This document shows positions 14,905 to 40,283 of a stretch of 64,000 nucleotides of DNA, piece after piece. Under the pieces are notes generated by a model. It saw nothing but the letters and a program-made list of their open reading frames with translations. It was not told the DNA's origin and searched no databases. Made by a program: the position numbers and the translations under genes. Every line of letters begins with the position of its first letter. Positions within the stretch are counted from its first letter, which is position 1. Source of the stretch: Marinicella marina (GTDB lineage Bacteria; Pseudomonadota; Gammaproteobacteria; Xanthomonadales; Marinicellaceae); NCBI RefSeq assembly GCF_026410145.1, contig NZ_JAPMLO010000004.1; one strand, given 5' to 3'.

Positions 14905-15684
14905 TCACTTGTAAATTAATTTTTCGATGAATTTAGGATTGAATAATTGCCATTCACCGTCCTTTTGAGCCAAACGATCAGCCAAAGCCCACATCACCGC
15001 TGGGTGATGCCCATAGCCCATATGGCTACAAACCACTTCGATATTCTGGGTAAACTTGGACTCTTGTTCTAAACAACACTGCCACGCTGTGATGCCATCT
15101 GATTTGGAATAAAAAGAGGTACTGGGCACCGGTGGCGGAGTCGGCATGTTCTTAATTAATTTGGGACACATATCAGATAATTTATAACCACTGGTTTTTT
15201 CAAAAATCTTGGTGGCATGATTTGCCCTTTGGTTGTTACAAAAAGGTGATCCCATGCTCACCACTTGACGCACCATTTCTGGATGCACTCGGGCCAATTC
15301 ACGGGCATAAATACCACCCAATGACCACCCAATCACAGTCACTTTTTCTGCGTGCCATTGGTGAATGTCTTGCAATCGCCTGATGATGGCAGGACCACAG
15401 GCAGTCAGGGGATCACTGTGACGTCCCATGTTGCGGCCCAATGACCAGCCATAGGCCTTGTAGTTTCGGCTATTGAGAAATGTTCTTAATAGTTTGGTAG
15501 AAAAATCAGAGGCCAAAAAGCCAGGTAATACCAACACCGGATGACCGTCACCTTTGGGTGCGGCTTGCAGCCAAGGATAACTCAAAGCAAATGAGCCCGC
15601 TTCGAAAAAGGTGCGGACTTCTAAGGCCATTTTGAACAGTGAAGGTCGGTGTAAATGTGAATTGAACGAAGTTGGTAAGGTCAT
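14905..15684 (-). CDS. Alpha/beta-fold hydrolase (lipase/esterase-like), translationally coupled to upstream WS/DGAT
   Basis: GWSLGG nucleophile elbow. Its ATG overlaps the TGA of 15681..17174 (ATGA). Confidence 0.7.
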   Translation of the reverse strand: MTLPTSFNSHLHRPSLFKMALEVRTFFEAGSFALSYPWLQAAPKGDGHPVLVLPGFLASDFSTKLLRTFLNSRNYKAYGWSLGRNMGRHSDPLTACGPAIIRRLQDIHQWHAEKVTVIGWSLGGIYARELARVHPEMVRQVVSMGSPFCNNQRANHATKIFEKTSGYKLSDMCPKLIKNMPTPPPVPSTSFYSKSDGITAWQCCLEQESKFTQNIEVVCSHMGYGHHPAVMWALADRLAQKDGEWQLFNPKFIEKLIYK

Positions 15685-17174
15685 TTTTTTGGACTTTTAT
15701 TCTTTGGTTTGGCTTTTTTCTTGCTTCTTTTACTTCCTTTTTTAAGCGACAACGCCTGTAAATTTGCCTCTAATTCATTGGCAGATTCACGGATGTACTG
15801 AGTAAACAAATCAACATCTGGCATTACATTGGCAGCCACCGTTGGGCTGATTGACAGTGTGCCGTTGTAGCTTAATACTGGCATAATCAAACCCATGCCG
15901 TCAAACACTGGTGCCATACCCATATTGGCTAACATTTTATGACCATTCATATACAGCGGTATCTGAGGTCCAGGTACATTGGTAATAATTAGATTAAAAA
16001 ATGGCCGGTGGTGGTTACTGACATTCATGCGAGTGTACATGCGGGTGGCTGCAGACCCCAATGCAAATGGAATGAATTCGGTATAGTCAATCAGTTGTTT
16101 GGCGCCAATAGCATTTTGATAAGCTTTACCTTGGTCCGTGTGCTGATGTACTTTTTGCAGTTGTTTGACCGGATCTGCTTCGGTTGTTGGTAGTTGCACC
16201 AGCATGGCTGACACTTGGTTACCCATATCATCCTGTTCTCCTTCAGTTCGGGTAGAAACTGGAATCATGGCTACCAGTGGCTTTTCTGGCAGCGCGTCTT
16301 TTTCATGCAGGTAACGACGCAAGGCACCCGTGCATATGGTCAAAACCACGTCATTAAGGGTGGCGCCTTTGGCCCCCACCCTCAAATCTTTGACCCGTTG
16401 TAAATCCAACAGCGTACTGTTCCAAAGCCGTTTAGAGGTGACAGGTTGATTCAATATGCTGGGTGGTGCGTTAAGAATAGACCTGGGTATTTCTTTGGAT
16501 TGAACCCGCGACAACCGCCCTGCTTTCCAAGTGGACTTAGCGGTCTCAAGCAAAAGTCCTGGCAGTTTGAAAGGTCGCTTGATGTAATTCATCGCACTGC
16601 GTCTGATCAGCGTGAAGTCACCTGGAAGTGCTTCAGCATCTGGTAAGGGCATGGCTGGAATTTTACGCGGCTTTTCAGTCACATCAAATAACAAGCCCAT
16701 AATGGCTGCGCCTGACGCACCATCAATGGCGGCATGATGAATTTTACTGATAACAGCAACCGACCCCTTAGGTACCTGAGAAATTTGATCTAAGCCTTCA
16801 ACAAAAACAAACTCCCACAAAGGCCTATTGCGGTCTAATTTCTGCGCAAAAATACGCGATGCTAATTTACGCAAGGCCTGCCAGTCACCAGGTCTTGGTA
16901 GAGCGGTATGGTGCAGATGCATATCAATGTCAAAGTTTGGGTCATCCACCCAATAAGGGTGATCAATGCTCATAGGGACTTGAACCAAACGCTGGAAAAG
17001 TCGCGGTGCCAATGGCAGTCGTTCAAGCAAAAAACTTTTGAAGTCCTCAAAAGACAAAGAACCCTCATAAACATTAACACTGCCCACATGCATGGGCTGG
17101 GTGTCAGTTTCAAGGTATAAAAAAGATGAATCTAGACCGCTCAGGGGTTGCATAATATTTAGGGTCAAAAACAA
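15681..17174 (-). CDS. Wax ester synthase / acyl-CoA:diacylglycerol acyltransferase (WS/DGAT) with Lys-rich C-terminal tail
   Basis: Catalytic HHxxxDG motif (KIHHAAIDGASG). About 460-aa WS/DGAT core, then the tail KKGSKRSKKKAKPKNKSPKK. Confidence 0.8.
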   Translation of the reverse strand: MFLTLNIMQPLSGLDSSFLYLETDTQPMHVGSVNVYEGSLSFEDFKSFLLERLPLAPRLFQRLVQVPMSIDHPYWVDDPNFDIDMHLHHTALPRPGDWQALRKLASRIFAQKLDRNRPLWEFVFVEGLDQISQVPKGSVAVISKIHHAAIDGASGAAIMGLLFDVTEKPRKIPAMPLPDAEALPGDFTLIRRSAMNYIKRPFKLPGLLLETAKSTWKAGRLSRVQSKEIPRSILNAPPSILNQPVTSKRLWNSTLLDLQRVKDLRVGAKGATLNDVVLTICTGALRRYLHEKDALPEKPLVAMIPVSTRTEGEQDDMGNQVSAMLVQLPTTEADPVKQLQKVHQHTDQGKAYQNAIGAKQLIDYTEFIPFALGSAATRMYTRMNVSNHHRPFFNLIITNVPGPQIPLYMNGHKMLANMGMAPVFDGMGLIMPVLSYNGTLSISPTVAANVMPDVDLFTQYIRESANELEANLQALSLKKGSKRSKKKAKPKNKSPKK

Positions 17175-25593: not shown

Positions 25594-28500
25594 TCATTCT
25601 TTTTTGGTGGTTTTTTTTACTGCTTTCTTTTTGCTCGCTGACTTGTTCATCGCAGAACGTTTGGCAGCTTTGCTTTTGACCGTCTGACTTTCAGTTGTGT
25701 TTACCGTTCTGGTGGATTTTGAAAGACTGAGGTTCTTGATTTTTTGACTCAGTTCAGTCACCTGCTCCAGTACCTCATTATTGATATTAAGCTTCTTATT
25801 CATCGCTACCACAATCGGTACGAACGATGTTTCCAAAGTCTCAGACAGTGAAATCATCGCATCATCAAGACCAGGCAACGGCTCATTTGAGACGTTGACT
25901 TGTAAATTCAGTTTCTCTATAGCTTGACTCAATCGATCGCTGACAATTGACAACTGTTGTTCAGTTTGACTTTGAGATGCTTGAGATTGTTGCATCCACT
26001 GCCCAGTCAATTCACTCATGTCGGTCTTTAAAGCACCAATTTGACTGGCAATCTTGGTGGCGCCATCGGCCTCATCTCCAGCCAAAGCGTTGCGGATTTT
26101 AAATTCTGCTTTGATCGCCTGCCATCTTTCTTCATCTTCAGCATTCAAAGTACCTCTGAGTGCTTTCAATTTAAGTAAGTTTTCCTCAGCCCCAGTGGTC
26201 AACAGCTGCGCTTCACCCGCATAATGATCATCTATCAGCTGTTGCAGTTCATGCTGGTCCATCACTGGTACCACTTTCTCAGCCAATTTATTCATGTTTC
26301 GGTAACTGCCCTGTAATTTGAAAGGTGGTTCTTGTCGGTACCTGTCATCCATCGCAGCAGATGAAATGTACGCTTGATTGACTTTCAAGATCACTTCTTG
26401 GACTGTGAACAAGTGTTTTAAAACAGTAATGATTTCGTTGATTTCACTGCTGGCATAACTGTGAGACAAATCTGATGTAGCCACTTCTTTGCCTTTGGCC
26501 ATATCCATCAACAGGTATAAGTCATTCATCTCTCGCAGTGCCAGAGGAGCCAGCACCGGATTCGATGTCAATGAGTTTTCAATGTAACTCATAGCAAACA
26601 CATCCTCTTGTCCACCCAGAATGTCACCTAAGTTATAGACGTCGGCCCGATTGGCCAACATATCAGGAACCCTAAAGACTTCACCTGATTCGGTATACGG
26701 ATTACCCGCCATGATCACACAGAATTTTTTGCCACGCATGTCATAGGTTTTACTCATGCCGCGCCACACCCCTTCGATTTTACGGGTACCGTCACATAAC
26801 GAGATGAATTTCTGCAAGAACTCGGCATGGGTGTGCTGGATGTCATCCAAATACAACATCACATTATTCCCCATCTCCAATGCTAAATTAAGCTTTTCAA
26901 GCTCTTGTTTGGCTGTTGCATTGGGCGCATTGGCTGGATCCAATGATTTGACATCATGCCCCAATGAAGGACAGTTGATTTTCATAAAATTCAAACCCAA
27001 ACGGTTCGCTGTGTACTCCATCAAAGTGGTTTTGCCGTAGCCTGGCGGTGATATTAACAGCAACAAACCCATCAAATCACTGCGTTTGTTTTGTCCGGCG
27101 GCGCCCATCTGTTTGGCCAAATTATCACCAATGATGGGTAAATAAGACTGATTGATCAATTGGTTACGCACGAACGATGCCAATGGTCTGGCTTTGAAAG
27201 TTTCCAGCGCCATTTGTGCACGTTGTTCGTGCATCACGGTTTGTTTCATTTCACGGTATTCTTGGTATTCAGGCACCAGTTGTTGGTGATAATGGCTCAA
27301 ACGCTCCATGAACTCATCGAACTCAAATTTGAGTGTGCGATTTTTGATGCGACTGTGATCCCCCAATAGATCGTCTACCTGACAAGCCAAATCCAATGCC
27401 GAAGCATCGTAAGCCTTGCCCTGTTTTGCCAAAATCAGCACAGTGGCTTCATTGATGAAGCGCAGCATGTCCTGATTTATTTCATTGTCTTTGCGAATCA
27501 TGCCACTGAGCCAATAACCAATCAATTGCCACTGTTGTTTGGGGTCATCATTGAGCGCATCCAGCTCATTTTTGAAAGCCTTATCCTCTCCCACCGCGGT
27601 CAAATGATCATTCAGTTGTTTAACTAAATCTGCCGCATGTTTAGAGACTTGAAATGTTTTGGTCGGTGAATCATCAACGATATGGGCCAAAAGGAATTCA
27701 GCGGCCAACAGCATTTGTGCTGCGTTAAAGCGCAAATCATTCTGTAGATAAAAGGCGTCCATCTCCGCTTTGAATTCAACATACAAGTCTTGGCACATAG
27801 ATCGGTCACCCAAGGTTTTGGCAATTTTATTAGCAGTTTGAGCGCGCTGTGTATAGTGCTTTTGGTTTTTAACACTGCTGTGCAACCAAAAATAGCTAGC
27901 CAATGCCCGAGCACTGGGCCCAAACATCATCAAAGGCGCTGTTTGGTATATCTGCAGCAATTGGCTGATGATTTTACTGGCATCATGATCATGGATGCCT
28001 TTTTCATAGCCTTCTTGGTAACGCGGGTTGGCATAGGCCTTGACAAAATCAACCAATGCCTCTTCATCCAACGACACCAACTGATCTATGCTGCTGCCTG
28101 CTTCACCCTGAATGGCATCTTGAAAAATGTTGTAAGCCAAATACTCGGCTCGGTAAACCGAGTCATTTTCTGAGCTCATTGTTTGTGGCCAAAAGTCCTT
28201 GTAATCGTGTAGCTTTTGGTTATTCACAGGCTCATAAAAATCAGTCCCAGACAAATGAAAATACAGGGCATCATTCCTTGGCAAAATGGTCAAATCAAGT
28301 GACTGGGTGTTGACGCTGAAACGGTGTTTCCCCAATTTAATGTTCTTGCCACCGTCTTCAAATATGTCCTGCTTGTCCCTCAACGAACGTATGGCCTGCT
28401 CTTTGATGGCTTTTAGTCTGGCCTCTGTGTCATCGGCTTTGACACTGTCATCCAAGTCATGCAACTGACCGATCAGCTCCTTGACTTTATGAATCATGGG

Positions 28501-30915
28501 ATCGGAAGAATAATAGGTGTTCAATTGATCACTGTCGGTGAACTTCAAAGAACGCCGCTCTATACTTTTTAACACCCGAGTGGCTGCAGATTGTACATTC
28601 TCGGCTTTGCGTTGGCGTTGATCAATCAGACTTTGTTTCTTGTTTTCAAAGGTCTCGTGTAGTTCTTCGCGTTTGGTCAGTATTTGGTCTAAAAAGGCTT
28701 CGTTCTCACTGAAGTTAACCTCAAGCTCTTCCAACAACACCATCAAACGCGCCAACTGTTCATCACAACCATCAGGCGTTTCTGCCAGGGCCACCCCACT
28801 GGTGATGCTTTGCGAAAGGACTGCCAATTGAGCACCAAACTCAGCCACTGATTCAGTTGCTGACAGCTCCTTGCTGGTCAGCTTAGCATGCGCTTTGGTT
28901 TGATTGATCCGAGAGTATACTTGTGAAACTGACTCTAATATGGCGGTTTTCTGCAGCGTATCATCAATTTCTAAACCGTTGATGACCTCTGAGAGTGCAT
29001 CCAAACCCAAACTCATTTCATCCAATTCGTCCAACAAAGGCTTTAAATCTTTGACTGTTTTAATCTCAGCGGTTTTTTGGTGCACCTCATCGACCACCTG
29101 CTCATAATGCAACATGGCTTGTTCATCCGACAGGAACTGAATGGTTCTTTTACCCAGTGCCTCAATTTCATCATCCACTTGCAATGACAAGTCTTCAATC
29201 GCACTTAAATCAATATAACGGTACTCGCGCAATGACAACAAGTGGCCTTTTTGTCGTTTTAACTGCAACAAACCATCTACAAATGGTGCTGGCGTATCCC
29301 AATTAGCAATTTTGATTTCACGAAGTAATTGTTGTAAGTCATGCTGAGCCTCTTTCAACGCTTTGGCACTTTGTAGATTGATTGATTTGACCTTTTCAAA
29401 CTCGTCCAACACCAATTCTGATGTTTCACCAATCAAATCCAACTGTTCTGAGAAATCACCCACGGCTGAATTTTCCAGCCAATAATAACCATCCTTCACC
29501 CGCTGGATGTTTTTTATCAAATCCTCATAGACTTGAACACTGGGTTGTTGCTCACTGATCAGTTTGGAAATACCATATAGTTCTGAGATGCCTTGGACCA
29601 ATTCCGCATTTCCAATGGTTGATAATTCACTGTCATCTTTGCTTTGACTGGCACTGTATTCCTCACTGGTATAAGGCGTTTGCCAGATTTGCATGGGGTG
29701 TATCCGCGTCGCCTCAGTTGACTCGGCGCGAAAAATAATCATTTTGCCATCATCATATAATGAATAACCGTGACCAAAAATGGGATTTTGTAATTCCTTG
29801 CGGATGGTGTTGTAAGAATAAAGCGCCAGTTTTCCTTCCAGCTTTTCATAAAACACATACAGCACATCTTCGCCATTGGGTGCATTCCAGCGCCGTTTGA
29901 ACAACAAACCATCTACATCTTCAGCAAAGACTTTGGATTCACCACTTTGTAAGTAGTAACCACCAGGGAAAATGATGCCATGATCATTTGGCAACTGCAC
30001 ACAAGCATGTCCCAAGGCATCTATTCGCAAGACCTCATTGTTGCGGGTATTGAACACAAAATAACGCCAATCTTGTTCTTTGTAAGGCAAGATTTTTAAT
30101 AAAATCAAGGCATGGACTTTGGCATAGTAGATGTCGGCATCTTCCAAAGATTGATTCGGTTCATCAACCGCCTCTTGGTAAATACCCTCACCATCCTCGG
30201 TGTTATTCTCGACCTTGATGGTCAAATCACCACCGACGGTTTCAACAAAAACTTCATCCATGATTGATACATGAGGGTGACGGCCTTGAACGAATTGGTC
30301 TCGCTCGGCTTTGTGCCACTCAAAATCATAAGCCGGTGGTAATTCAATGTCGCGCTCACCGCGATCATCGATGTATTGCACTTCACCGTTGTTGCCTATG
30401 ACCCAACGAAATACCCTGATGTCGCCGATTTTTTCGCCAATTTGGAATGCCGCCAAGAGTTTTTGATCGACCACACGCAGCTGAATCAACTCGGCTTTTT
30501 TGTAGTAACTGTAGAGCTCTAAAAACTGTTTAACAAAAACCTCGTCAGCCAGGAATGAACCGGCCAATGGTTCCGCTTTGACTTCAAATTTTCCCTCGTT
30601 TTCATGCAGCGAATACAGCGCGAAAACGTCCTTTACTTGGGTGGCTTTTTTTAAACCAATAAACACATTGTAGCCAAACAACAATTGTCCATTGATTCGC
30701 ACCATATCACGTGGTGTGCAATTGTTTTCTGTTCTTACCCTGACCCGATCAACCACTTCAAGTACCGTTTTGCCGAATGTTGATTCACGCAATTGGTTCA
30801 AGCCAATGATTTTTTGTTCTAATTGTTTGTTTTGTTCCTCTAGGCGTTTGCGAATGACCTCATATGAGCCGCCACTGGCTACCGCTTGATTGATGGTGCT
30901 GTTGTTATCAGCCAT
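25594..30915 (-). CDS. Giant (1773 aa) protein with AAA_5 (MoxR/dynein-type) ATPase domain, long coiled-coil regions and Lys-rich C-terminal tail
   Basis: Single uninterrupted ORF. Walker A LLISPPGYGKTTL, Walker B VMLYLDDIQ, then FCVIMAGNP, which matches the AAA_5 pattern. C-terminal KSKAAKRSAMNKSASKKKAVKKTTKKE. Confidence 0.8.
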   Translation of the reverse strand: MADNNSTINQAVASGGSYEVIRKRLEEQNKQLEQKIIGLNQLRESTFGKTVLEVVDRVRVRTENNCTPRDMVRINGQLLFGYNVFIGLKKATQVKDVFALYSLHENEGKFEVKAEPLAGSFLADEVFVKQFLELYSYYKKAELIQLRVVDQKLLAAFQIGEKIGDIRVFRWVIGNNGEVQYIDDRGERDIELPPAYDFEWHKAERDQFVQGRHPHVSIMDEVFVETVGGDLTIKVENNTEDGEGIYQEAVDEPNQSLEDADIYYAKVHALILLKILPYKEQDWRYFVFNTRNNEVLRIDALGHACVQLPNDHGIIFPGGYYLQSGESKVFAEDVDGLLFKRRWNAPNGEDVLYVFYEKLEGKLALYSYNTIRKELQNPIFGHGYSLYDDGKMIIFRAESTEATRIHPMQIWQTPYTSEEYSASQSKDDSELSTIGNAELVQGISELYGISKLISEQQPSVQVYEDLIKNIQRVKDGYYWLENSAVGDFSEQLDLIGETSELVLDEFEKVKSINLQSAKALKEAQHDLQQLLREIKIANWDTPAPFVDGLLQLKRQKGHLLSLREYRYIDLSAIEDLSLQVDDEIEALGKRTIQFLSDEQAMLHYEQVVDEVHQKTAEIKTVKDLKPLLDELDEMSLGLDALSEVINGLEIDDTLQKTAILESVSQVYSRINQTKAHAKLTSKELSATESVAEFGAQLAVLSQSITSGVALAETPDGCDEQLARLMVLLEELEVNFSENEAFLDQILTKREELHETFENKKQSLIDQRQRKAENVQSAATRVLKSIERRSLKFTDSDQLNTYYSSDPMIHKVKELIGQLHDLDDSVKADDTEARLKAIKEQAIRSLRDKQDIFEDGGKNIKLGKHRFSVNTQSLDLTILPRNDALYFHLSGTDFYEPVNNQKLHDYKDFWPQTMSSENDSVYRAEYLAYNIFQDAIQGEAGSSIDQLVSLDEEALVDFVKAYANPRYQEGYEKGIHDHDASKIISQLLQIYQTAPLMMFGPSARALASYFWLHSSVKNQKHYTQRAQTANKIAKTLGDRSMCQDLYVEFKAEMDAFYLQNDLRFNAAQMLLAAEFLLAHIVDDSPTKTFQVSKHAADLVKQLNDHLTAVGEDKAFKNELDALNDDPKQQWQLIGYWLSGMIRKDNEINQDMLRFINEATVLILAKQGKAYDASALDLACQVDDLLGDHSRIKNRTLKFEFDEFMERLSHYHQQLVPEYQEYREMKQTVMHEQRAQMALETFKARPLASFVRNQLINQSYLPIIGDNLAKQMGAAGQNKRSDLMGLLLLISPPGYGKTTLMEYTANRLGLNFMKINCPSLGHDVKSLDPANAPNATAKQELEKLNLALEMGNNVMLYLDDIQHTHAEFLQKFISLCDGTRKIEGVWRGMSKTYDMRGKKFCVIMAGNPYTESGEVFRVPDMLANRADVYNLGDILGGQEDVFAMSYIENSLTSNPVLAPLALREMNDLYLLMDMAKGKEVATSDLSHSYASSEINEIITVLKHLFTVQEVILKVNQAYISSAAMDDRYRQEPPFKLQGSYRNMNKLAEKVVPVMDQHELQQLIDDHYAGEAQLLTTGAEENLLKLKALRGTLNAEDEERWQAIKAEFKIRNALAGDEADGATKIASQIGALKTDMSELTGQWMQQSQASQSQTEQQLSIVSDRLSQAIEKLNLQVNVSNEPLPGLDDAMISLSETLETSFVPIVVAMNKKLNINNEVLEQVTELSQKIKNLSLSKSTRTVNTTESQTVKSKAAKRSAMNKSASKKKAVKKTTKKE

Positions 30916-30998: not shown

Positions 30999-33002
30999 TT
31001 AACTTTCGGTGTCTTGCTCATCGTTGCGAGACAATTTCTTGATCATTTGAGTGATGGTGTCTTTATCAAAACTCTTACCGTTACCCAAACTCATGACCTT
31101 AGCCACCGCAGCTTGTAAGATGTCGCTTTTACCAATGGCACCATCTACCGCTTTACCCACTGCCAACGAACTCATGAACTTCTCTAAGAAGTCACCATTG
31201 CCACCGACAATATCGATATTCGCTTCTTTTAAAGCCTCTGCCAGTACTTTGGCTTGGGTTTCAGCAATACCCGTATTGGCCTCAATCGCTTTCATGTTCT
31301 CAACATGCGACATGTCTAAGCCCATGCGAAACTCCTCATGTTCTCTGACCGTCTCATCCATGGTCGCCAGCGCCGCAAACTTCTCTTTCAAACCTCGTGC
31401 TTCTGCCGCATAGCGTTCTTCGATGGCTTGTGCTTCAGCCACTTTAATCTTCACTGCGACCATGGCTTGTTGTTCTTCACCTTGAGCATCCGCTTCTTTC
31501 ACCCGCACATTGGCCATGCCTATATCCTCAGCACCGACCGCCTCTGCTTTGAATTTCTCTGCCATCACAGCCGCTTCTGCCTCACCTTGTTTCTGATGAG
31601 CGGCGGCTTTGGCTTCTATGACTTTGGCTTCTGCCAAACCAGTGGCAGCCGCTTCCTCACGCACACCTTCAGCCAATCTGATTTTGGCATCGGCTTCTTT
31701 GGCTGCTGATTCACGTGCCGCCTCAGCCAGAGTGATGCGCTCACTGGCACGGTGTTTGGCTGTGGTTTCTTGTGCTTCGGCCGCTTTGATTTCCTTGATT
31801 AAATCTTGTTCTGCCAAAGCTTCAGCTGCAATCACCTGAGCTTGTTTGTTGCGTTTGGCTTCTTCCACCACCCGCAGTTCATTGATTTTTTCTTCTTGCT
31901 CAGCCACTGTTTTTTCTACCGCTATGCGTTCACGCACCACATCTGCAATGTTTTTCTTTTCAACCTCAAGGTCTTTTTCTTTGTTGATTTCTTGCAGCGC
32001 CACTTCACGTTCACGGCCAACAATTTCTAACTGTCTAACCTTAGTGACTTTTTCTTCTTCGATTGCCACCGCACGCATGCGGTTATTGGCCGCCACTTCA
32101 ACTTCTCGCTGTTTGTTTTCTTCCAGTACCATCAGTTCTTGATCGGTAGCAATCCTGGCTGTTTCTGCTTTCAGGCGTTCTTCACTTTCAATTTTTTCTT
32201 TTTCAGCTTCCTCGCGGGCTTTGACCGAAGCAATTTCGCGCATCTGCCTGGCCTCTGCATCGGCTTCAATGCGTTCCAACTCTAAAATTCGCTCCCTGGC
32301 TTCAACATCCCTTTTCTTGATTTTGGTTTCCTCTTCACGCTCAAACTCATTGGTGAGGATTTTTTGTTTCGCCGTTAACTCAGTGATTTTACGAATACCC
32401 TGGGCATCCAAGATGTTGTTCTCATCCAAAGACGAAATCGGCGTTTGCTCCAAATAGTCAATCGCCGCATCTTCCAACACATAACCATTCAAGTCTTTAC
32501 CAATGACCATGATGATTTCATCCCTGAAGCGATCACGTTCTTCATACAACTCCTCAAACTCAAGTTTTTTACCCACAGTTTTTAAAGCTTCTGAGAACTT
32601 GGCACTGAATAACTCTTCTATGGTGGCTTGTTTAGATGCCCGCTCACAACCAATCGCTTGTGCCACTTTCAGTACGTCTTCTTTGGTTTTATTAACTCGA
32701 ACAAAGAAGGTTACCTTGATATCCGCCCTGATGTTGTCCTTACAAATCAATCCATCTTGAGCCCGACGATCAATCTCAATGGTCTTGAGTGATATGTTCA
32801 TGAATTCCTTTTTATGAATAACTGGCCACACGGTGCGACCCGTAAAGGTCACTTCCGGTGTTTCTTTCATGGTGTTCACAATCATGGCCTGACCCTGCTC
32901 TACCTTTTGGTAGAACTTCATCACAATCAGGGCCAACCCGATGAGTGCCAACACCACCACCCCAGCATAGGTGGCTATGGCTATTAATAAGTCGCTATTC
33001 AT
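30999..33002 (-). CDS. Flotillin-family SPFH/band-7 protein (YqiK-like)
   Basis: N-terminal TM, SPFH core, and a roughly 350-aa E/A/K-rich coiled coil (EA repeats). Confidence 0.85.
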   Translation of the reverse strand: MNSDLLIAIATYAGVVVLALIGLALIVMKFYQKVEQGQAMIVNTMKETPEVTFTGRTVWPVIHKKEFMNISLKTIEIDRRAQDGLICKDNIRADIKVTFFVRVNKTKEDVLKVAQAIGCERASKQATIEELFSAKFSEALKTVGKKLEFEELYEERDRFRDEIIMVIGKDLNGYVLEDAAIDYLEQTPISSLDENNILDAQGIRKITELTAKQKILTNEFEREEETKIKKRDVEARERILELERIEADAEARQMREIASVKAREEAEKEKIESEERLKAETARIATDQELMVLEENKQREVEVAANNRMRAVAIEEEKVTKVRQLEIVGREREVALQEINKEKDLEVEKKNIADVVRERIAVEKTVAEQEEKINELRVVEEAKRNKQAQVIAAEALAEQDLIKEIKAAEAQETTAKHRASERITLAEAARESAAKEADAKIRLAEGVREEAAATGLAEAKVIEAKAAAHQKQGEAEAAVMAEKFKAEAVGAEDIGMANVRVKEADAQGEEQQAMVAVKIKVAEAQAIEERYAAEARGLKEKFAALATMDETVREHEEFRMGLDMSHVENMKAIEANTGIAETQAKVLAEALKEANIDIVGGNGDFLEKFMSSLAVGKAVDGAIGKSDILQAAVAKVMSLGNGKSFDKDTITQMIKKLSRNDEQDTES

Positions 33003-33098: not shown

Positions 33099-33800
33099 TT
33101 AATTTAATTCTTCTGCTTTGATGACCCAGTAACTGCCGTCTTCTTCATCGTATGATTTCAGTATGACCAAATCACCTTTGGTGATGTTATCAGACACTTT
33201 GGCTCTGACATCAAACAGCATCCCTGCGCCACCATCTTGGTACTCTGCTTGGCCGAAGCTCTCAGTGACAGAGCCCGTTTTAACCAAACACTCACTGCCT
33301 ATGAAAGAAACCTTGTTTCTGGCCGTGTACGACACAAAAGCACTTTTCAGAGGCCTGATGAATTGTGCCGTGACTGGTATGGCCAAAGCAAAACTGACCA
33401 ATAACAAAGCCGCACCAACCAACCACTGTAACAGCGCCAAAGGAATCAGTGGCATAACCACTGATGCCAAAATGTAACTGATCAACCAAGCCGAAGCCAC
33501 CAAAATCGAGACCACCACAGTCACAGGCACACCAGTCAGACCCCATTTCAACATAAAGCCGGTAATCCCTCTGAGACTTTCAGGGTCAAAATCAGGATCT
33601 ACCGTAGCACCTACATCGGCATCTACATCAAGCTCAATATCTGCGTCAACATCAACATCAAGATCGAAGTCAGCATCAAACATATCAATATCAACCGCAC
33701 CTAACATCGCCAATAACCAGTAAACAATGATGATTGCCAGTAAAAAGGTAAACACAATCACAGGAAAACTCGTTATGTTTGTTAAAAAAATTTCCATCAC
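33099..33800 (-). CDS. YqiJ-like NfeD-family membrane protein (DUF1449; TM region plus C-terminal OB-fold)
   Basis: N-terminal TM, acidic D-rich linker, further TM helices, and a C-terminal beta-rich domain GDLVILKSYDEEDGSYWVIKAE as in NfeD partners of flotillins. Overlaps upstream gene by 4 bp. Confidence 0.6.
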   Translation of the reverse strand: MMEIFLTNITSFPVIVFTFLLAIIIVYWLLAMLGAVDIDMFDADFDLDVDVDADIELDVDADVGATVDPDFDPESLRGITGFMLKWGLTGVPVTVVVSILVASAWLISYILASVVMPLIPLALLQWLVGAALLLVSFALAIPVTAQFIRPLKSAFVSYTARNKVSFIGSECLVKTGSVTESFGQAEYQDGGAGMLFDVRAKVSDNITKGDLVILKSYDEEDGSYWVIKAEELN

Positions 33801-34138
33801 AGCTCCTCATCAATATTTTTGACGTGCTCAATCAGTTTTTCTGCAGCTCGCCTTTTGACCTCAACAGGGTCATTGGTTTCTAATTCATACGCTTCGGCTA
33901 AAAAAGCCATGTCATCATCAGACAGTGAGATTGATAGACGCAGTCGTTTTGGTTTTCGCGACACACTCAGACCCAGAATTTGTCTGATTCTGTCAGACGG
34001 GTTGATGCTTCTGTCTAAAGCTTCTTTTCTGATCACATATTGGATTTTCTCACCCACATCGAAAGCCACCTGGGTGGCCTTCACCGCTTTCTTCTCCTTG
34101 GCCCATTTATTCAAGATTTGTTGTTTCTTATCAGTCAT
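33797..34138 (-). CDS. Small ribbon-helix-helix (CopG-like) DNA-binding protein
   Basis: C-terminal KRLRLSISLSDDDMAFLAEAYELETNDPVEVKRRAAEKLIEHV fits the RHH beta-alpha-alpha pattern. 113 aa. Confidence 0.4.
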   Translation of the reverse strand: MTDKKQQILNKWAKEKKAVKATQVAFDVGEKIQYVIRKEALDRSINPSDRIRQILGLSVSRKPKRLRLSISLSDDDMAFLAEAYELETNDPVEVKRRAAEKLIEHVKNIDEEL

Positions 34139-34269: not shown

Positions 34270-34980
34270 TCATTCCTTGTCAATGATCCTTTTCAACACA
34301 TCTGCTGCATCTTCCGTGACTTGTTCAGAAACTTCATTCTGATGTTTTTCGGTCAACACTGGCTTGCGCTCATTAACCATTGCATCATCCACTTCATATT
34401 GTTCATCAAGGCTTTGCTGTTTTCTGCGTATCCTTTCCAAGGATCGTTTGGCAGATAACATTTTGCTGTCGGCTTGGTTGAAGTTTTTGGTAATGACTTC
34501 AGTCGCCTTTTGGATGTCCGCAGTGGTTTGTACCATTGCCACCTGCCGTTCCAGTTCTTTCAATGAACGTTCGGCATTTTCCATTTGTCGAGTCAAATGA
34601 CCTAAGTGCAGTTCATGTGACTTGAGTATGCCCGCCTCGGCTGCCAGGTCTTGTTCCAGTTCAACCATTTCAGTGGCCAAATCAAAAGCCAATATTTCAT
34701 CATTTTGACTCAAAGCCTTAATGATGCGCTGCTCATGCTCATCAACTTGCGACTTCATCAACTTAACTTTTCTAGAGCATTGTGATTCTTTGGCCAATGC
34801 GTCGCTGATGGCATGTTTGGCACTGCTTAAATTAACTTTGGCCACTTCAATTTGTTTTTCGTATATTTTATTACCAGTTGAATCCATAACCGCTTCACTC
34901 AATGCCCTGGAATCATCTCTGATGACTTGAATGATCTTATCTAAGATGTTCATTCCTGCACGTTTCTTATCACCACTCAT
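34270..34980 (-). CDS. PspA/IM30 family protein (YjfJ-like; bacterial ESCRT-III homologue)
   Basis: 236-aa all-helical coiled coil. The N-terminal pattern ILDKIIQVIRDDSRALSEA parallels PspA/YjfJ. Confidence 0.75.
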   Translation of the reverse strand: MSGDKKRAGMNILDKIIQVIRDDSRALSEAVMDSTGNKIYEKQIEVAKVNLSSAKHAISDALAKESQCSRKVKLMKSQVDEHEQRIIKALSQNDEILAFDLATEMVELEQDLAAEAGILKSHELHLGHLTRQMENAERSLKELERQVAMVQTTADIQKATEVITKNFNQADSKMLSAKRSLERIRRKQQSLDEQYEVDDAMVNERKPVLTEKHQNEVSEQVTEDAADVLKRIIDKE

Positions 34981-35384
34981 TTTAAGAAGTCCTCCATGGC
35001 CGATACCACATCAACAGCGTTTTCGTTCAACATCACCACCTCTTCCACCACTTTATCTAACTCAGAACTGACCGATAAAGCACCGAAAAGCACATACCGA
35101 TCGCCTACCCTGGCGTAAGATGACAATGGTATTGAAATGCTGGTATCAAGCATCATTTCTAACATCTCAGTGCGCCTGTCTGCTCTGATTTCATCCTCGG
35201 TCCATAAATAGATGATACAAATGATTTGAAATTGAGTTTGCGTAATAAACACCGGAAAACCATCAAACCCATTGATCTCAACCTGTAACACTTCTACTTC
35301 CCCAGTGATTCTTTGGCAATCAAAAGTAAAGCCTTCCGTGGTTCTGTGTTGAGATAATTTAATGGCAAAATCCTCTGTGTTCAT
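34977..35384 (-). CDS. YjfI-like DUF2170 protein
   Basis: 135 aa immediately 5' of the PspA/YjfJ-like gene with a 4-bp overlap, as in the E. coli yjfI-yjfJ pair. Confidence 0.5.
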   Translation of the reverse strand: MNTEDFAIKLSQHRTTEGFTFDCQRITGEVEVLQVEINGFDGFPVFITQTQFQIICIIYLWTEDEIRADRRTEMLEMMLDTSISIPLSSYARVGDRYVLFGALSVSSELDKVVEEVVMLNENAVDVVSAMEDFLK

Positions 35385-35419: not shown

Positions 35420-35452
35420 TGACATAATATGTCACAATGACATAATATGTCA
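35420..35452. promoter_or_regulatory. Two tandem copies of perfect 15-bp palindrome TGACATAATATGTCA (putative operator) upstream of yjfI-pspA operon
   Basis: 35420..35434 and 35438..35452 are identical, with 7-1-7 inverted-repeat symmetry. Further TGACAT/ATGTCA-like half-sites follow at 35464-35490. Sits 36-68 bp 5' of the yjfI-like start on the minus strand. Confidence 0.6.
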
Positions 35453-35583
35453 ATGTGCATGAAGTCACATATGAACTGTATTTGACATCTAGGCAGGTAT
35501 GAAAATGAATTAAATAAGGGGCTTATATGATTGTAAAACTTAACAATAAATAAAAAAATTACCCGAAAAGTAAGTGGCTGAAA

Positions 35584-36570
35584 TTAATTTTGATTATTTT
35601 CTGGTTCAATTTCATGCAGCGCTGCGCTTGAGTCATCACTGACCTGCTGCATGTGTTCAAGGGTCTGATCAATCAATACTTTGGCTTGTTCTAATTTGGC
35701 CGTATCGATTCTGAAGTGCTCGGCATGCTTTTGCTGGCGTTGATTGTTGTTGGCCATCGCCACACCAGCTGCCACATCCAGAGCGGCTGTGGTGGTCATC
35801 ACCGTTTGGTCAATATCACGGATCAAGCTTTGGTTTTGTTTGATGATCAATTCTACGGTCATCATCGCTTGTCTGGCGATCAAGGATTGTTGTTGTAGGT
35901 CGATCAAGCGTTGTTGCACTGGGCCAAGTAATTCATCATCAATGACCGCTAAGTGATGGGCACTGATTGTTAAGGTATCTGCGCTGCGTAGTTTGAGTTG
36001 TTGTTCGAAGACAGTCACGAAATCAAAGCTTTGGGTCAGTTTTTGCAAACCCGCCATCAACGCTTCATGATCGCCGTTGAGAATCTGATTGTCGCGCATC
36101 AACTGCCGCTTTTCAGCATTTAACTGTTCCACCAATCCAACCATCACTTTGCGTTTTTCCGGGAAATTATCCAACCACATTTGATAAGCTGATTCTCGCC
36201 AAGAAAACAACAACAAAAAACGTTCCCTCCAGCTCAATCTGCGTTGAGGAGGTTGCATGTCAGCCACCTGTTGCGAAAGTTGAGCCAGTAACTTTGATAC
36301 CTTACCACCGGCATCGGTATCTGCCATCAATTGTTGCAAAGGATGAATCAAGCGCTTATTCAACTGCCAATAAGCCGCCTGCTCCTCTGCCCCCAACTCA
36401 AATAAGGCATTCCTGACTTGATCAACCAACTGTAAATCATTGAAATCCATCGCCAGCACCCAATCAACCAATTGATCAGCAGCTTTTTCTATGTATGCCT
36501 CAGACTCATGACTGATCATTGCATGATCAAGTGTGCTTAATTGTTTAAAAGTTGCCAGTGCAGCCTTCAT
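35584..36570 (-). CDS. TelA-like toxic-anion-resistance family protein
   Basis: 328-aa helical protein. LVDQVRN segment matches the conserved LLDQVRN region of TelA/KlaB/YaaN. Confidence 0.5.
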   Translation of the reverse strand: MKAALATFKQLSTLDHAMISHESEAYIEKAADQLVDWVLAMDFNDLQLVDQVRNALFELGAEEQAAYWQLNKRLIHPLQQLMADTDAGGKVSKLLAQLSQQVADMQPPQRRLSWRERFLLLFSWRESAYQMWLDNFPEKRKVMVGLVEQLNAEKRQLMRDNQILNGDHEALMAGLQKLTQSFDFVTVFEQQLKLRSADTLTISAHHLAVIDDELLGPVQQRLIDLQQQSLIARQAMMTVELIIKQNQSLIRDIDQTVMTTTAALDVAAGVAMANNNQRQQKHAEHFRIDTAKLEQAKVLIDQTLEHMQQVSDDSSAALHEIEPENNQN

Positions 36571-37481: not shown

Positions 37482-38429
37482 ATGAAGAATAAATCAAGTG
37501 TAAAAGTAGGACTTGCTCTTGGCAGTGGCTCTGCCAGAGGCATGTCACACATCGGTGTGATTAAAGCTTTGGAGGCGATGGGCATCAAGGCAGACATTGT
37601 GGCGGGTTGTTCTGTGGGCAGTATGGTTGGTGCCAGTTATGCCACCAACAATTTATCCCACTTAGAGGAATGGGCGTTATCAATGAACGAATCAAAGGTT
37701 CGTTCTTTCCTCAGCCTCAACTTCAATGCCTCTGGATTCATCAATTCGATGAAGTTAAAGAAGCTTTTTGAACATGCCATTGGCCTTGAATCATTGAAGT
37801 TCAAAGACATGGACAGACCGTTTGGCGCAGTGGCAACCGACTTAAGTACCGGCAAAGAGGTTTGGTTGAATGAAGGTTCAGTGCATGATGCTTTGTGGTC
37901 ATCGATGGCTTTTCCGGGACTTTTTCCCAGTGTCAAACACGGTAACAAGTGGTTGGTTGATGGCGGCTTAGTCAACCCCGTACCCGTCTCTTTGTGTCGC
38001 GCCATGGGCGCTGAGAAAGTCATTGCAGTCAATCTCAATGCCGATATCATTAACAGTTACAAAGCCGTCAGCGATGAAGATGAAGAAGATGACTCATTAC
38101 CTGAGGATCCATTGGCTGATCAGGATGATGCTGGCCTGTGGGACAAAACCAAAGCGGGCTTTGAGAAAGCCGTTAAATTAATCAGTGCCGATGGCAGCAA
38201 AGTCAAAGAACCCAAAGGCATCGATGTGATTTCTAATTCCATTCACATCATGTCCTCGCATTTGACCCGCAGCAGATTAGCCGGCGAGCCACCTGATGTG
38301 TTATTGCAGCCACGGTTAACAGATGTTGGGCTGTTAGAGCTGCACAAATCAAAAGGGTGTATTGAGGAAGGTAAAAAGAGCGTTGAGCGAATGTCTGAAG
38401 AAATTAAATTCAGAATTTTTGGCGAATAA
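37482..38429 (+). CDS. Patatin-like phospholipase
   Basis: GSGSARG oxyanion motif, GCSVGS (GxSxG) nucleophile, DGG catalytic Asp. Confidence 0.85.
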   Translation: MKNKSSVKVGLALGSGSARGMSHIGVIKALEAMGIKADIVAGCSVGSMVGASYATNNLSHLEEWALSMNESKVRSFLSLNFNASGFINSMKLKKLFEHAIGLESLKFKDMDRPFGAVATDLSTGKEVWLNEGSVHDALWSSMAFPGLFPSVKHGNKWLVDGGLVNPVPVSLCRAMGAEKVIAVNLNADIINSYKAVSDEDEEDDSLPEDPLADQDDAGLWDKTKAGFEKAVKLISADGSKVKEPKGIDVISNSIHIMSSHLTRSRLAGEPPDVLLQPRLTDVGLLELHKSKGCIEEGKKSVERMSEEIKFRIFGE

Positions 38430-38436
38430 TTGAGTT

Positions 38437-39702
38437 ATGTCCGCTGGCAACAAATCAACCATAGAACTACCGATTAATTTGTCACTGGCTTTGGGTGCCT
38501 ACACCACAAAGATATGGGTAGGATCTGACAAGACGGAGTTAAATGTGCTGCTTGATACGGGCAGCAGCACCCTGGCCATTGATGCCGAAGTTTATCAGGC
38601 TGGTGCTGACCAATCTTTACAAGCAACCCAATACGCTCAAAGCGTCGTTTATGGTAAAGGTGGCTGGGCCGGACCGGTGATTCGCACTGAGATAACGCTT
38701 GATCACAGCGACCAATATTTACTCAATGATGCGCCCTTGGCCCTGACCAAGAGCGCTACAAAAAATGATTTTCAAAATGCGGATGGTATTTGGGGCTTGG
38801 CCTATCACCATTTGAACAAAGCTTATGATGTCAGTTCATCACTTGAGCAAATCATACCACCACAAAAAACTACCCATCCCTGGCCATATACCGAACAAGT
38901 AAAGGAAATCGGTGTTCATGGATTCAAGAAATATTTACACCAATTTCCAGAACATGACATCACCCCTACTTTTACTGCCTTCGAAGAAAACAACATCATC
39001 AACAACCAATTTGCACTGAGTACCAATCGCTCCATTGTCTACGTACCCCAAGCAGGCATGAGTCAGCATGAAATCGCTGCACATGCAATGAATCGAGGTT
39101 TGTTCCAGATTGGTGTGACAGCCACCACACAAGAAAAAATCAGCATGGCAGTGGTGCATGATGCTTATTACAATGCTGATTTAATTGCTGTGCGTGTTGC
39201 AGGCTTTGGTGCTTGTAAGGCACCACCGCTAGAGGCTGATAAACTCAATAGTTTTTTCTCTAATGCCATCATAGATTCAGGCTGTAGTTTTTTGGTACTA
39301 CAAAAACAGCTGTATGAATATGTATTGAATTGTTTTGAAAAACTCAATCCCACATTCAGACCTGCACTTGAGGCAGCACAACAAGCATTCAGTCAAAATA
39401 AACCCTATAAAAACAATCAATTGGATCTCAGTCAGTGGCCAATTTTGACCTTTAAATTTGTCGGCACAGATTCTGAATCAATCGAATTAGAGCTACCGCC
39501 ACAATGTTATTGGCAGGAACACGCCAAAAGTCCTGATAATTGGATGTTTATGTTGATGAACCAAATGCCTCAATGGCCCAATCAAACCATCTGCGGACTG
39601 CCACTTATGAACAATTACCAATGTATTTTTGACCGCTCAGATCAGCAAAACGGTAGCATTCACTGGCTAAAGAAAGCTGTTCTAGCGCCAGATAAAAAAT
39701 AA
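38437..39702 (+). CDS. Pepsin-like (family A1) aspartic peptidase, bacterial shewasin-like, no signal peptide
   Basis: Two catalytic motifs with hydrophobic context: VLLDTGSSTLAI and AIIDSGCSFLVL. Flap-like YGKGGWAG. 421 aa, bilobal spacing. Confidence 0.7.
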   Translation: MSAGNKSTIELPINLSLALGAYTTKIWVGSDKTELNVLLDTGSSTLAIDAEVYQAGADQSLQATQYAQSVVYGKGGWAGPVIRTEITLDHSDQYLLNDAPLALTKSATKNDFQNADGIWGLAYHHLNKAYDVSSSLEQIIPPQKTTHPWPYTEQVKEIGVHGFKKYLHQFPEHDITPTFTAFEENNIINNQFALSTNRSIVYVPQAGMSQHEIAAHAMNRGLFQIGVTATTQEKISMAVVHDAYYNADLIAVRVAGFGACKAPPLEADKLNSFFSNAIIDSGCSFLVLQKQLYEYVLNCFEKLNPTFRPALEAAQQAFSQNKPYKNNQLDLSQWPILTFKFVGTDSESIELELPPQCYWQEHAKSPDNWMFMLMNQMPQWPNQTICGLPLMNNYQCIFDRSDQQNGSIHWLKKAVLAPDKK

Positions 39703-39782: not shown

Positions 39783-40283
39783 ATGCATAAAAAAATACGC
39801 TTCATATTTACCCTTCTGATATCGACACTGATATTTCAGAGCCCAGTTAAAGCCAGTTTTAAACCTACTTGGTGGGGCGCATCAGCTGGACAAATCAATG
39901 TGTTCAGAGAAAACCAGTTTAAAAACAATTTCTATGGATTAGAGGTCAGATTTACACCCATCACTCAATGGTCCTTGACCCCTTCCCTGGGGTATCAATG
40001 GAGTGACAGTGGTATCAGTTACTTTTACTCGGGATTGAGTTATGACATTGACCTATCAGACCGTTGGACTTTCGATGTACATTCTGGTGTCGGCCTGTAT
40101 GACGATGGTCAGTTCTTAAATTTGGGGCACACGGTACAATTCCGCTCGGGCATTGAGTTTGATTACCAGCTGACACCAAAACAAAAGCTTGGTATCGTTA
40201 TCAATCATTTTTCTAACAGCCGTTTATCTGCTGTTAATCCAGGTACTGAGTCAGTTTCATTGATTTATTTGAATAAATTTTGA
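39783..40283 (+). CDS. PagL-like outer-membrane lipid A 3-O-deacylase / acyloxyacyl hydrolase family protein
   Basis: Signal peptide, amphipathic beta-strand pattern, and INHFSNS (H-x-S-N catalytic motif of PagL family). Confidence 0.55.
   Translation: MHKKIRFIFTLLISTLIFQSPVKASFKPTWWGASAGQINVFRENQFKNNFYGLEVRFTPITQWSLTPSLGYQWSDSGISYFYSGLSYDIDLSDRWTFDVHSGVGLYDDGQFLNLGHTVQFRSGIEFDYQLTPKQKLGIVINHFSNSRLSAVNPGTESVSLIYLNKF

What the first reader, a model, noticed from the sequence alone, without database searches (positions are those of the whole stretch)
25594..30915. 1773-aa single-ORF protein: unknown N-terminal domain, internal AAA_5 (MoxR/dynein/midasin-type) ATPase, extensive coiled coil and polylysine C-terminal tail
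The ATPase domain lies roughly at residues 1240-1440: Walker A SPPGYGKTT, Walker B MLYLDDIQ, then the AAA_5-typical spacing to FCVIMAGNP. The rest of the protein is not a known AAA+ partner architecture. The N-terminal approx 450 aa are rich in aromatic/Gly beta-like segments (possible propeller or lectin-like fold). This is followed by about 700 aa of helical repeats, and after the ATPase by a Q/E/L coiled coil ending in KSKAAKRSAMNKSASKKKAVKKTTKKE. A basic tail of this kind could bind anionic phospholipid or nucleic acid. A single AAA_5 module, rather than a ring of six in tandem, implies homo-oligomerisation. A giant mechanochemical protein next to flotillin is reminiscent of dynein/midasin-like remodelling, and appears uncharacterised.
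Basis: seen in the sequence. Interest (0 to 1): 0.7.

Follow-up and report, generated by a model that had tools for sequence, protein, structure and literature searches.

The report
Giant flotillin-linked MoxR-type AAA+ ATPase
This is an intact gene for a 1773-residue soluble ATPase of a widespread but experimentally unstudied bacterial family that always sits right after a flotillin gene, so it most likely remodels flotillin membrane scaffolds rather than repairing DNA as databases label it.

Summary
The ORF at 25594-30915 (minus strand, 1773 aa) is real and intact. It is 100% identical to a Marinicella protein annotated "DNA repair ATPase". It is not an orphan architecture. It carries Pfam DUF3686 (E 7e-198), DUF7902 and one AAA+ module. 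More than 6,600 homologues exist in at least six bacterial phyla, and all are collinear at about 1600-1900 aa.

The N-terminal β domain is only loosely propeller-like. The C-terminal coiled coil and lysine tail are lineage-specific.

The gene follows a YqiK-type flotillin gene in 77 of 77 testable loci. A YqiJ/NfeD-like gene precedes the flotillin gene in about 73 of 80 loci, and CesT-like plus PspA genes are present in 35 of 80, as they are here. Ravi et al. (2024) mentioned this operon in one sentence. No experiment or solved structure exists.

Best reading: a hexameric motor that remodels the flotillin/NfeD complex under envelope stress. This mechanism is inferred from gene linkage and fold, not shown.

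The parts
25594..30915 (-). Whole gene: 1773-aa soluble DUF3686-family MoxR-type AAA+ ATPase (database name 'DNA repair ATPase')
   Evidence: No TM segment: maximum Kyte-Doolittle 19-mer score 1.33.
30775..30903 (-). N-terminal long helix (residues 5-47)
   Evidence: AF2 model 1, helices H5-14 and H16-47.
29680..30759 (-). β-rich, loosely propeller-like domain (residues 53-412), the core of Pfam DUF3686 (32-478)
28360..29628 (-). Long helical bundles (residues 430-852), including Pfam DUF7902 (599-681 = 28873-29121)
27196..28344 (-). Conserved middle domain of unknown fold family (residues 858-1240): a small 5-strand β unit followed by helices, with the near-invariant motif G973-x-H975-D976-x-D978
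   Evidence: pLDDT about 90-96. Motif conserved in >=95% of 78 diverse members. No Pfam or PDB sequence match even at permissive E-values.
26236..27168 (-). AAA+ module (residues about 1250-1560): Walker A 1289-1297 (27025-27051), Walker B 1353-1360 (26836-26859; DD rather than DE), pre-sensor-1 β-hairpin 1379-1392, sensor-1 N1405, Arg finger R1423, sensor-2 G-S-Y-R1539
25723..26142 (-). C-terminal helical or coiled-coil region (residues 1592-1731), low model confidence. Residues after about 1650 are lineage-specific.
   Evidence: pLDDT 53-71. Gap fraction 0.53-0.86 after residue 1650 across the family. Actinobacterial homologues end about 120-140 aa earlier.
25597..25719 (-). Disordered lysine-rich tail (residues 1733-1773), seen among the close gammaproteobacterial homologues and absent from the actinobacterial ones
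   Evidence: pLDDT 29-41. 14 K/R in the last 41 residues. Only 58 of 308 homologues have >=10 K/R in the last 40 residues.
30999..33002 (-). YqiK-type flotillin (667 aa, one N-terminal TM), the invariant upstream partner
   Evidence: BLASTP against E. coli YqiK E 2e-34. TM at residues 1-34. Directly upstream on the same strand in 77 of 80 loci; the other 3 lack upstream DNA.
33099..33800 (-). YqiJ/NfeD-like membrane protein (233 aa)
   Evidence: hhalign of family profile A4 against E. coli YqiJ: probability 93.5%, E 2e-7. About 3 hydrophobic segments. Present in 72-73 of 80 loci. The Hymenobacter orthologue is annotated DUF1449, the same label as E. coli YqiJ.
33797..34138 (-). Small conserved ORF (113 aa) of unknown function between pspA and yqiJ
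   Evidence: No Pfam hit. Found in 10 of 80 loci, nearly always together with YjfI.
34270..34980 (-). PspA/IM30 (YjfJ-like) protein
   Evidence: Pfam PspA_IM30 E 1e-17. Present in 35 of 80 loci by clustering.
34977..35384 (-). DUF2170 / YjfI (CesT/Tir-like chaperone), the likely first gene of the operon
   Evidence: Pfam DUF2170 E 2.5e-32. Its family assignment to CesT/Tir comes from PMC11237479.
35424..35453 (-). Promoter-like site (TTGACA-18-TATTAT, 11 of 12 matches) upstream of yjfI
   Evidence: Consensus scan only; this is not proof of function.
35584..36570 (-). TelA-like gene immediately upstream. Association is local, not conserved.
   Evidence: Pfam TelA E 1e-22. Found in 0 of 80 related loci.

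Best explanation
The gene encodes a cytoplasmic protein of about 200 kDa made of, in order: an N-terminal helix, a divergent propeller-like β domain, long helical bundles, a conserved middle domain of unknown function, and one catalytically competent MoxR-class AAA+ module. It is the last gene of a conserved module, yqiJ(NfeD-like)-yqiK(flotillin)-ATPase. In this window the module is extended upstream by yjfI(CesT-like)-pspA-orf113.

The most likely mechanism is as follows. Like its nearest structural relatives CbbQ and NorQ, it forms a hexameric ring. Its non-ATPase domains dock on the cytoplasmic face of the flotillin/NfeD membrane scaffold. ATP hydrolysis is then used to remodel that scaffold (assemble, open or disassemble it) or to extract or hand over proteins held in it, as part of an envelope-stress or membrane-maintenance response that in many lineages also recruits PspA.

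Shown here: the architecture, the conservation of catalytic residues, the MoxR-like fold and the invariant gene linkage. Inferred: hexamerisation, a physical interaction with flotillin, and the direction of remodelling. The database label 'DNA repair ATPase' has no support.
For: Identity and spread. Pfam finds DUF3686, DUF7902 and AAA. More than 6,600 homologues exist, and 904 clusters at 50% identity match the N-terminal 700 residues. The phyla represented are Pseudomonadota, Myxococcota, Actinomycetota, Bacteroidota, Deinococcota and a Clostridia MAG.

Linkage. Flotillin lies directly upstream on the same strand in 77 of 77 loci that have upstream DNA. YqiJ-like genes occur in 72-73 of 80 loci and PspA plus YjfI in 35 of 80. 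Intergenic gaps are short, with a median of about 91 bp and some 4-bp overlaps. The same five-gene operon is annotated in Hymenobacter.

Possible domain fusions. P0298 joins an NfeD1b_N domain to a complete DUF3686 domain, and P0340 joins a flotillin C-terminal part to the ATPase.

Localisation. The ATPase has no TM segment, whereas flotillin and the YqiJ-like protein do.

Prior comparative genomics names the same operon (PMC11237479). From established knowledge, SPFH scaffolds recurrently pair with AAA+ machines (HflK/C-FtsH, prohibitin with the m-AAA protease).
Against: No direct evidence of an interaction was obtainable, because no complex prediction was possible.

Characterised MoxR proteins (CbbQ-CbbO, NorQ-NorD, RavA-ViaA) work with a VWA/MIDAS partner (my knowledge of the literature), and none is found in the protein or the operon.

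The Walker B motif is DD rather than DE. This could mean slow, switch-like hydrolysis rather than a processive motor.

The helix-2 insert expected for this clade is not seen as a hairpin in the model.

The two fusion proteins come from single metagenomic cluster representatives and could be gene-calling or assembly artefacts.

Confidence: 0.5

Rival explanations
1. It is primarily a PspA (bacterial ESCRT-III) remodeller, a functional analogue of Vps4 that disassembles or recycles PspA polymers. On this view flotillin and YqiJ serve only as the membrane platform.
For: PspA and its CesT-like partner are in the same operon here and in 35 of 80 loci. Ravi et al. propose ATP-dependent membrane remodelling for PspA-AAA+ associations.
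Against: More than half of the loci (45 of 80) have the ATPase with flotillin and YqiJ but no adjacent PspA, whereas flotillin is never missing. The ATPase is MoxR-like, not of the classical Vps4 clade, and no MIT-like domain was detected.
Confidence: 0.15
2. It is a nucleotide-gated structural tether or switch rather than a motor. A long helical protein would link flotillin microdomains to another cellular structure, with slow ATP turnover (DD Walker B) setting its assembly state.
Against: The Arg finger, sensor 1 and sensor 2 are all at least 95% conserved, as expected for an active inter-subunit ATPase. The nearest structural relatives are active remodelling hexamers.
Confidence: 0.12
3. 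It is part of an anti-phage or conflict system: a large NTPase sensor with a propeller, plus membrane-acting effectors.
For: Large NTPases with repeat domains are common in defence systems, and vWA-MoxR conflict systems exist (PMC7159879). PspA and flotillin act on membranes.
Against: No PADLOC hit for the ATPase or its core partners. No homologue in 50,697 phage records, and only 13 of 72,556 plasmid records, mostly megaplasmids or chromids. The architecture is fixed and identity is 44-54% across phyla, rather than showing the rapid diversification typical of defence genes. No effector domain was found.
Confidence: 0.06
4. It is a DNA repair ATPase, as annotated.
For: Only the database names support this: the Pfam DUF3686 description and the NCBI product name. 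A protein with a similar name rose in chromate-stressed P. putida, but its family membership was not verified.
Against: No DNA-binding, nuclease or SMC/Rad50-type split ABC architecture is present; Walker A and Walker B lie 64 residues apart in one AAA+ domain. No DNA-repair gene is among the gene families recurrent in 80 loci; the partners conserved across most of them are all membrane-associated. RuvB similarity is limited to the P-loop (19 bits against cut-offs of 282-299).
Confidence: 0.03

Closest known systems
DUF3686/DUF7902 'DNA repair ATPase' family and the CesT/Tir-PspA-YqiJ-flotillin-AAA+ operon noted by Ravi et al. 2024 (PMC11237479)
   Same: The domain order and length are the same, and the neighbours are the same. 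[quoted passage not shown]
   Different: There is no difference in kind; this is simply the Marinicella member. What this analysis adds to that description: the AAA+ clade (MoxR-like), a conserved middle domain with a G-x-H-D-x-D motif, the weakness of the propeller assignment, and the lineage-specific tail.
MoxR-family AAA+ ATPases of the CbbQ/NorQ group, and midasin (Pfam AAA_5)
   Different: CbbQ and NorQ are proteins of about 260 aa that work with a separate VWA/MIDAS partner (CbbO, NorD). This protein is 1773 aa with about 1250 residues of N-terminal domains, has no VWA partner, has DD in Walker B, and is linked to flotillin. Midasin has six tandem AAA modules; this protein has one.
SPFH scaffold plus AAA+ partner systems (HflK/C-FtsH; prohibitin with the m-AAA protease)
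   Same: An SPFH-family membrane scaffold is genetically coupled to an AAA+ machine. This is a functional analogy drawn from established knowledge.
   Different: FtsH is a membrane-anchored classical-clade AAA protease. This ATPase is soluble, of the MoxR class and has no protease domain. The scaffold is a YqiK-type flotillin, not HflK/C.
E. coli yqiJ-yqiK (NfeD-like plus flotillin) operon
   Same: The two upstream genes are homologues of these and lie in the same order.
   Different: In E. coli K-12 no ATPase gene follows yqiK; it is followed by the sibD/ibsD and sibE/ibsE loci.

Membership tests
DUF3686-family giant ATPase ('DNA repair ATPase' of NCBI/Pfam) | N-terminal DUF3686 (PF12458) domain | tested here: met
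   E 7e-198, residues 32-478, covering profile positions 2-448 of 448.
DUF3686-family giant ATPase ('DNA repair ATPase' of NCBI/Pfam) | DUF7902 plus a single C-terminal AAA+ module, collinear over about 1600-1900 aa | tested here: met
   PF25472 E 1.5e-22. Full-length alignments show 44-75% identity at 97-100% coverage. Representative proteins are 1600-1900 aa.
DUF3686-family giant ATPase ('DNA repair ATPase' of NCBI/Pfam) | Gene immediately downstream of a YqiK-type flotillin gene | tested here: met
   True in this window (83-bp gap) and in 77 of 77 loci with upstream DNA.
MoxR / AAA_5 group (pre-sensor-II-insert clade of AAA+) | Nearest structural neighbours are MoxR-family proteins | tested here: met
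MoxR / AAA_5 group (pre-sensor-II-insert clade of AAA+) | Pre-sensor-1 β-hairpin between α3 and β4 | tested here: met
   Model strands 1379-1384 and 1387-1392 lie between helix 1364-1373 and strand 1398-1403.
MoxR / AAA_5 group (pre-sensor-II-insert clade of AAA+) | Helix-2 insert (β-hairpin in α2) | tested here: inconclusive
   The model shows only a conserved 18-residue loop (1315-1332) between β2 and α2, with no hairpin. Model coordinates could not be inspected.
MoxR / AAA_5 group (pre-sensor-II-insert clade of AAA+) | Sensor-2 arginine, with extra helical material before it in the lid | tested here: met
   G1536-S-Y-R1539 is at least 95% conserved. About 110 residues with four helices separate β5 from it. 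The CbbQ alignment covers 234 of 267 residues, which includes the lid.
MoxR / AAA_5 group (pre-sensor-II-insert clade of AAA+) | Pfam AAA_5 is the best-scoring AAA model | tested here: not met
   AAA_5 scores 25.5 bits (cut-off 22), but AAA (32 bits) and AAA_22 (30.2 bits) score higher. A profile search against PDB matches only the P-loop of NVL, Rix7, RuvB and p97.
MoxR / AAA_5 group (pre-sensor-II-insert clade of AAA+) | Cognate VWA/MIDAS partner protein or domain | tested here: not met
   No VWA hit in the protein, the operon or the flanking genes. None appears among the gene clusters recurrent in 80 loci.
Classical AAA clade (PF00004: Vps4, FtsH, p97) | No pre-sensor-1 hairpin and no sensor-2 arginine, with closest structures in this clade | tested here: not met
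   No such Pfam or NCBIfam hit. The structural neighbours are ring-forming AAA+ proteins.
SMC/Rad50/RecN-type ABC DNA-repair ATPase | Walker A and Walker B/signature motifs at opposite ends of a long coiled coil | tested here: not met
   Walker A (1289) and Walker B (1353) are 64 residues apart in one AAA+ fold. No SMC or ABC hit.
β-propeller (N-terminal domain) | Closed array of 4-stranded blades that superposes on known propellers | tested here: inconclusive
Flotillin / SPFH (the neighbouring gene) | Homology to a recognised flotillin, including the N-terminal TM and SPFH region | tested here: met
   BLASTP against E. coli YqiK: E 2e-34 over residues 15-447. Pfam Band_7 and Flotillin models do not hit.

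The most novel reading that the evidence does not exclude
The DUF3686 ATPase is the dedicated ATP-driven assembly or uncoating motor of YqiK-type flotillin cages. It would be the first enzyme known to actively remodel an SPFH membrane microdomain. Its layout of a propeller-like domain, helical bundles and an AAA+ module recalls eukaryotic coat and dynein/midasin-type machines, and its conserved G-x-H-D-x-D middle domain may add an as yet unknown activity.
Probability: 0.35. Interest if true: 0.8.

Novelty: new member of a known kind. Interest (0 to 1): 0.55.

Why it matters
What bacterial flotillins actually do is still disputed. An ATPase partner found next to flotillin at every locus examined, across at least six phyla, gives a direct experimental handle: mutate the motor and watch the scaffold.

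The family has thousands of members, including ones in Stenotrophomonas maltophilia, Proteus mirabilis, Pseudomonas, Myxococcus and many actinomycetes. It is propagated through databases as 'DNA repair ATPase', a name for which no support was found here. Correcting that name would change how these loci are read in genomic and proteomic studies.

It would also extend the MoxR class to a giant form that lacks a VWA partner, and it would add a new case to the recurring partnership between SPFH scaffolds and AAA+ machines.

Tried and rejected
- Sequence search of the whole protein against PDB found nothing. A family profile matched only the P-loop.
- PADLOC gave no hit for the ATPase, flotillin or YqiJ-like proteins, so a defence system was not pursued.
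- Literature searches for DUF3686, PF12458, 'DNA repair ATPase' with flotillin, MoxR with SPFH, and flotillin/NfeD/AAA+ found no study of the family apart from Ravi et al. 2024. The P. aeruginosa SPFH paper and the 2009 SPFH evolution paper do not mention an ATPase partner.
- A profile of the middle domain (850-1245) had no hit in PDB at E<=10 and only noise in Pfam.
- TelA linkage was rejected as a family feature: 0 of 80 loci.
- The Foldseek resemblance to IFT-A and clathrin (propeller plus helical region) has TM of 0.18 or less, so it is not treated as homology.
Full report
OBSERVATION. The window contains an uninterrupted ORF at 25594..30915 on the minus strand (ATG start, 1773 codons). 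A GGAG motif lies about 8 nt upstream of the start codon. So is the lysine-rich C-terminus, with 14 K/R in the last 41 residues. The protein is 100% identical to a protein of Marinicella sp. S1101 / M. marina named 'DNA repair ATPase'. It aligns end to end with hundreds of homologues, so a frameshift or assembly artefact is excluded.

WHAT IT IS: FAMILY. The N-terminal region is not unknown to databases. It matches Pfam DUF3686 (PF12458, described as 'ATPase involved in DNA repair') at E 7e-198 over residues 32-478. Residues 599-681 match DUF7902. The ATPase region matches AAA (32 bits), AAA_22 (30 bits) and AAA_5 (25.5 bits), all weakly. Two searches of the large protein collection each returned more than 6,600 relatives and hit the candidate cap. 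The relatives listed share the same Pfam domains and lengths of about 1600-1800 aa. An exhaustive HMMER search of cluster representatives at 50% identity, using residues 1-700, found 904 clusters at E<=1e-3 and 276 at E<=1e-30. Full-length members were 1600-1900 aa. Genome and plasmid scans show the gene in several groups:
- Gamma-, Beta- and Zetaproteobacteria
- Myxococcota
- Actinomycetota
- Bacteroidota (Hymenobacter)
- Deinococcota
- a Clostridia MAG
Identity to the query is 39-54% over nearly its whole length. None was found in 50,697 phage records. Only 13 of 72,556 plasmid records carry it, mostly megaplasmids or chromids.

ANATOMY. Two AlphaFold2 models were built from 56-sequence alignments. 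One covers residues 1-1000 (mean pLDDT 83.9) and the other covers 801-1773 (mean pLDDT 81.1). Together they give the following layout.
- A long N-terminal helix (5-47).
- A β-rich domain of about 27 strands (53-412).
- About 420 residues of long helical bundles (430-852).
- A small five-strand β unit (858-896) followed by a compact helical domain extending to about residue 1240, with pLDDT of 90-96.
- The AAA+ α/β core: β1 1285-1288, Walker A, β2 1309-1314, α2 1333-1348, β3/Walker B 1352-1357, α3 1364-1373, a β-hairpin 1379-1392, β4 1398-1403 and β5 1425-1428.
- A helical lid extending to about residue 1560.
- Conserved helices up to about residue 1650.
- A low-confidence coiled coil (to 1731) and a disordered tail.
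The protein has no hydrophobic segment compatible with a TM helix.

In an alignment of 78 family members at 31-54% identity, the following are at least 95% conserved:
- the Walker A residues (G1292 to T1297)
- D1357 and D1358
- sensor-1 N1405
- R1423, which sits at the Arg-finger position just before β5
- G1536-S-Y-R1539, a sensor-2 motif
- G973, H975, D976 and D978 in the middle domain
So the ATPase is very probably active. One family-wide peculiarity is that Walker B reads DD rather than DE. Positions 1650-1773 are gaps in 53-86% of the family. Actinobacterial proteins stop about 120-140 residues earlier. Only 58 of 308 full-length homologues have a basic tail. The coiled-coil and polylysine tail is therefore a lineage-specific appendage, not a defining feature.

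GENOMIC CONTEXT. On the same strand upstream lie, in order of transcription:
- a TelA-like gene
- a strong promoter-like site (a consensus match only)
- DUF2170/YjfI
- PspA/IM30
- a 113-aa ORF
- a 233-aa membrane protein
- a 667-aa protein with one N-terminal TM
- the ATPase
The 667-aa protein hits no Pfam SPFH model. It is nevertheless clearly homologous to E. coli flotillin YqiK (E 2e-34). The 233-aa protein's family profile matches E. coli YqiJ (hhalign probability 93.5%, E 2e-7).

Across 80 loci from different species, the flotillin gene is directly upstream on the same strand in 77. The remaining three have no upstream sequence. The YqiJ-like gene is present in 72-73 loci and PspA with YjfI in 35. 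TelA is present in none, and no downstream gene is conserved. Estimated flotillin-ATPase gaps have a median of about 91 bp, and some overlap by 4 bp. The annotated Hymenobacter locus reads 'molecular chaperone Tir - PspA/IM30 - DUF1449 - hypothetical - DNA repair ATPase'. A Deinococcus locus has the three-gene core.

Two cluster representatives look like domain fusions. One combines NfeD1b_N with a complete DUF3686 and DUF7902. The other joins a flotillin C-terminal half to the ATPase. They are suggestive, but they could be artefacts.

LITERATURE. No held paper mentions DUF3686 or PF12458. Ravi et al. [quoted passage not shown] They note that abbreviated versions without PspA are more widespread. 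No experimental or structural work was found.

MECHANISM. Shown here: a conserved, catalytically intact, soluble MoxR-class AAA+ protein whose gene follows a membrane-anchored flotillin gene at every locus examined, usually with an NfeD-like gene and often with PspA. Inferred: by analogy with CbbQ and NorQ it forms a hexamer. Its large N-terminal domains bind the cytoplasmic flotillin/NfeD scaffold or proteins held by it. ATP hydrolysis then remodels that assembly during membrane maintenance or envelope stress. The recurring partnership of SPFH scaffolds with AAA+ machines (HflK/C-FtsH, prohibitin with the m-AAA protease; established knowledge) makes this plausible. I put this reading at about 0.5.

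Rival readings and their approximate probabilities:
- a Vps4-like remodeller of PspA (0.15), weakened because PspA is absent from most loci whereas flotillin never is
- a slow nucleotide-gated tether (0.12), consistent with the DD Walker B and the long helical bundles
- a defence system (0.06), which has no PADLOC hit, no phage or mobile-element association and a fixed architecture
- the annotated DNA-repair role (0.03), for which there is no supporting domain or neighbour

VERDICT. The feature is real. The protein is not an unknown architecture, however. It is the Marinicella member of a large, catalogued, computationally noted but experimentally untouched family, so I rate it a new member of a known kind. 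Its interest lies in the strict flotillin linkage, the atypical MoxR form without a VWA partner, the unexplained conserved middle domain and the probably wrong database name.

Noticed in passing
window 38437-39702 (+): A 421-aa ORF matches Pfam PF00026 'Eukaryotic aspartyl protease' (E 3e-10, above the cut-off) and weakly matches TAXi_C. It is therefore a bacterial pepsin-like protease, which is uncommon. It lies between a patatin-like phospholipase (37482-38429) and a PagL-like lipid A deacylase (39783-40283).
   Followed up: no
window 40368-41333 (+): Unusual domain combination: an OmpR-type winged-helix DNA-binding domain (Trans_reg_C) at the N-terminus, followed by a histidine-phosphatase (His_Phos_1) domain.
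   Followed up: no
window 33797-34138 (-): A 113-aa ORF between pspA and the yqiJ-like gene has no Pfam family, only noise-level HTH hits. It recurs in 10 of 80 related loci, nearly always alongside YjfI and in most of them PspA as well.
   Followed up: partly
window 30999-33002 (-): The flotillin partner is a clear YqiK homologue by BLASTP (E 2e-34), yet it escapes every Pfam SPFH/Band_7/Flotillin model even at E<=10. HMM-based annotation would therefore miss this flotillin subfamily.
   Followed up: yes
window 27988-28005 (-), residues 973-978 of the ATPase: The motif G-I-H-D-H-D (G973, H975, D976 and D978 conserved in >=95% of 78 diverse members) lies in a very confidently modelled middle domain that resembles no known family by sequence. 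It may be a metal- or ligand-binding site.
   Followed up: partly
P0298 and P0340 (cluster representatives): P0298 combines an NfeD1b_N domain with complete DUF3686 and DUF7902 domains. P0340 joins the C-terminal 425 residues of a flotillin to the ATPase starting at about residue 231. They may be Rosetta-stone fusions or gene-calling artefacts.
   Followed up: partly
window 35584-36570 (-) and 35424-35453 (-): A TelA-like gene sits just upstream of the operon only in this genome (0 of 80 related loci). A near-consensus sigma-70-like promoter (11 of 12 matches) lies between it and yjfI.
   Followed up: partly
window 14905-17174 (-): A wax-ester synthase/DGAT gene (15681-17174) overlaps by 4 bp with an α/β-hydrolase gene (14905-15684), which suggests a neutral-lipid storage locus.
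   Followed up: no
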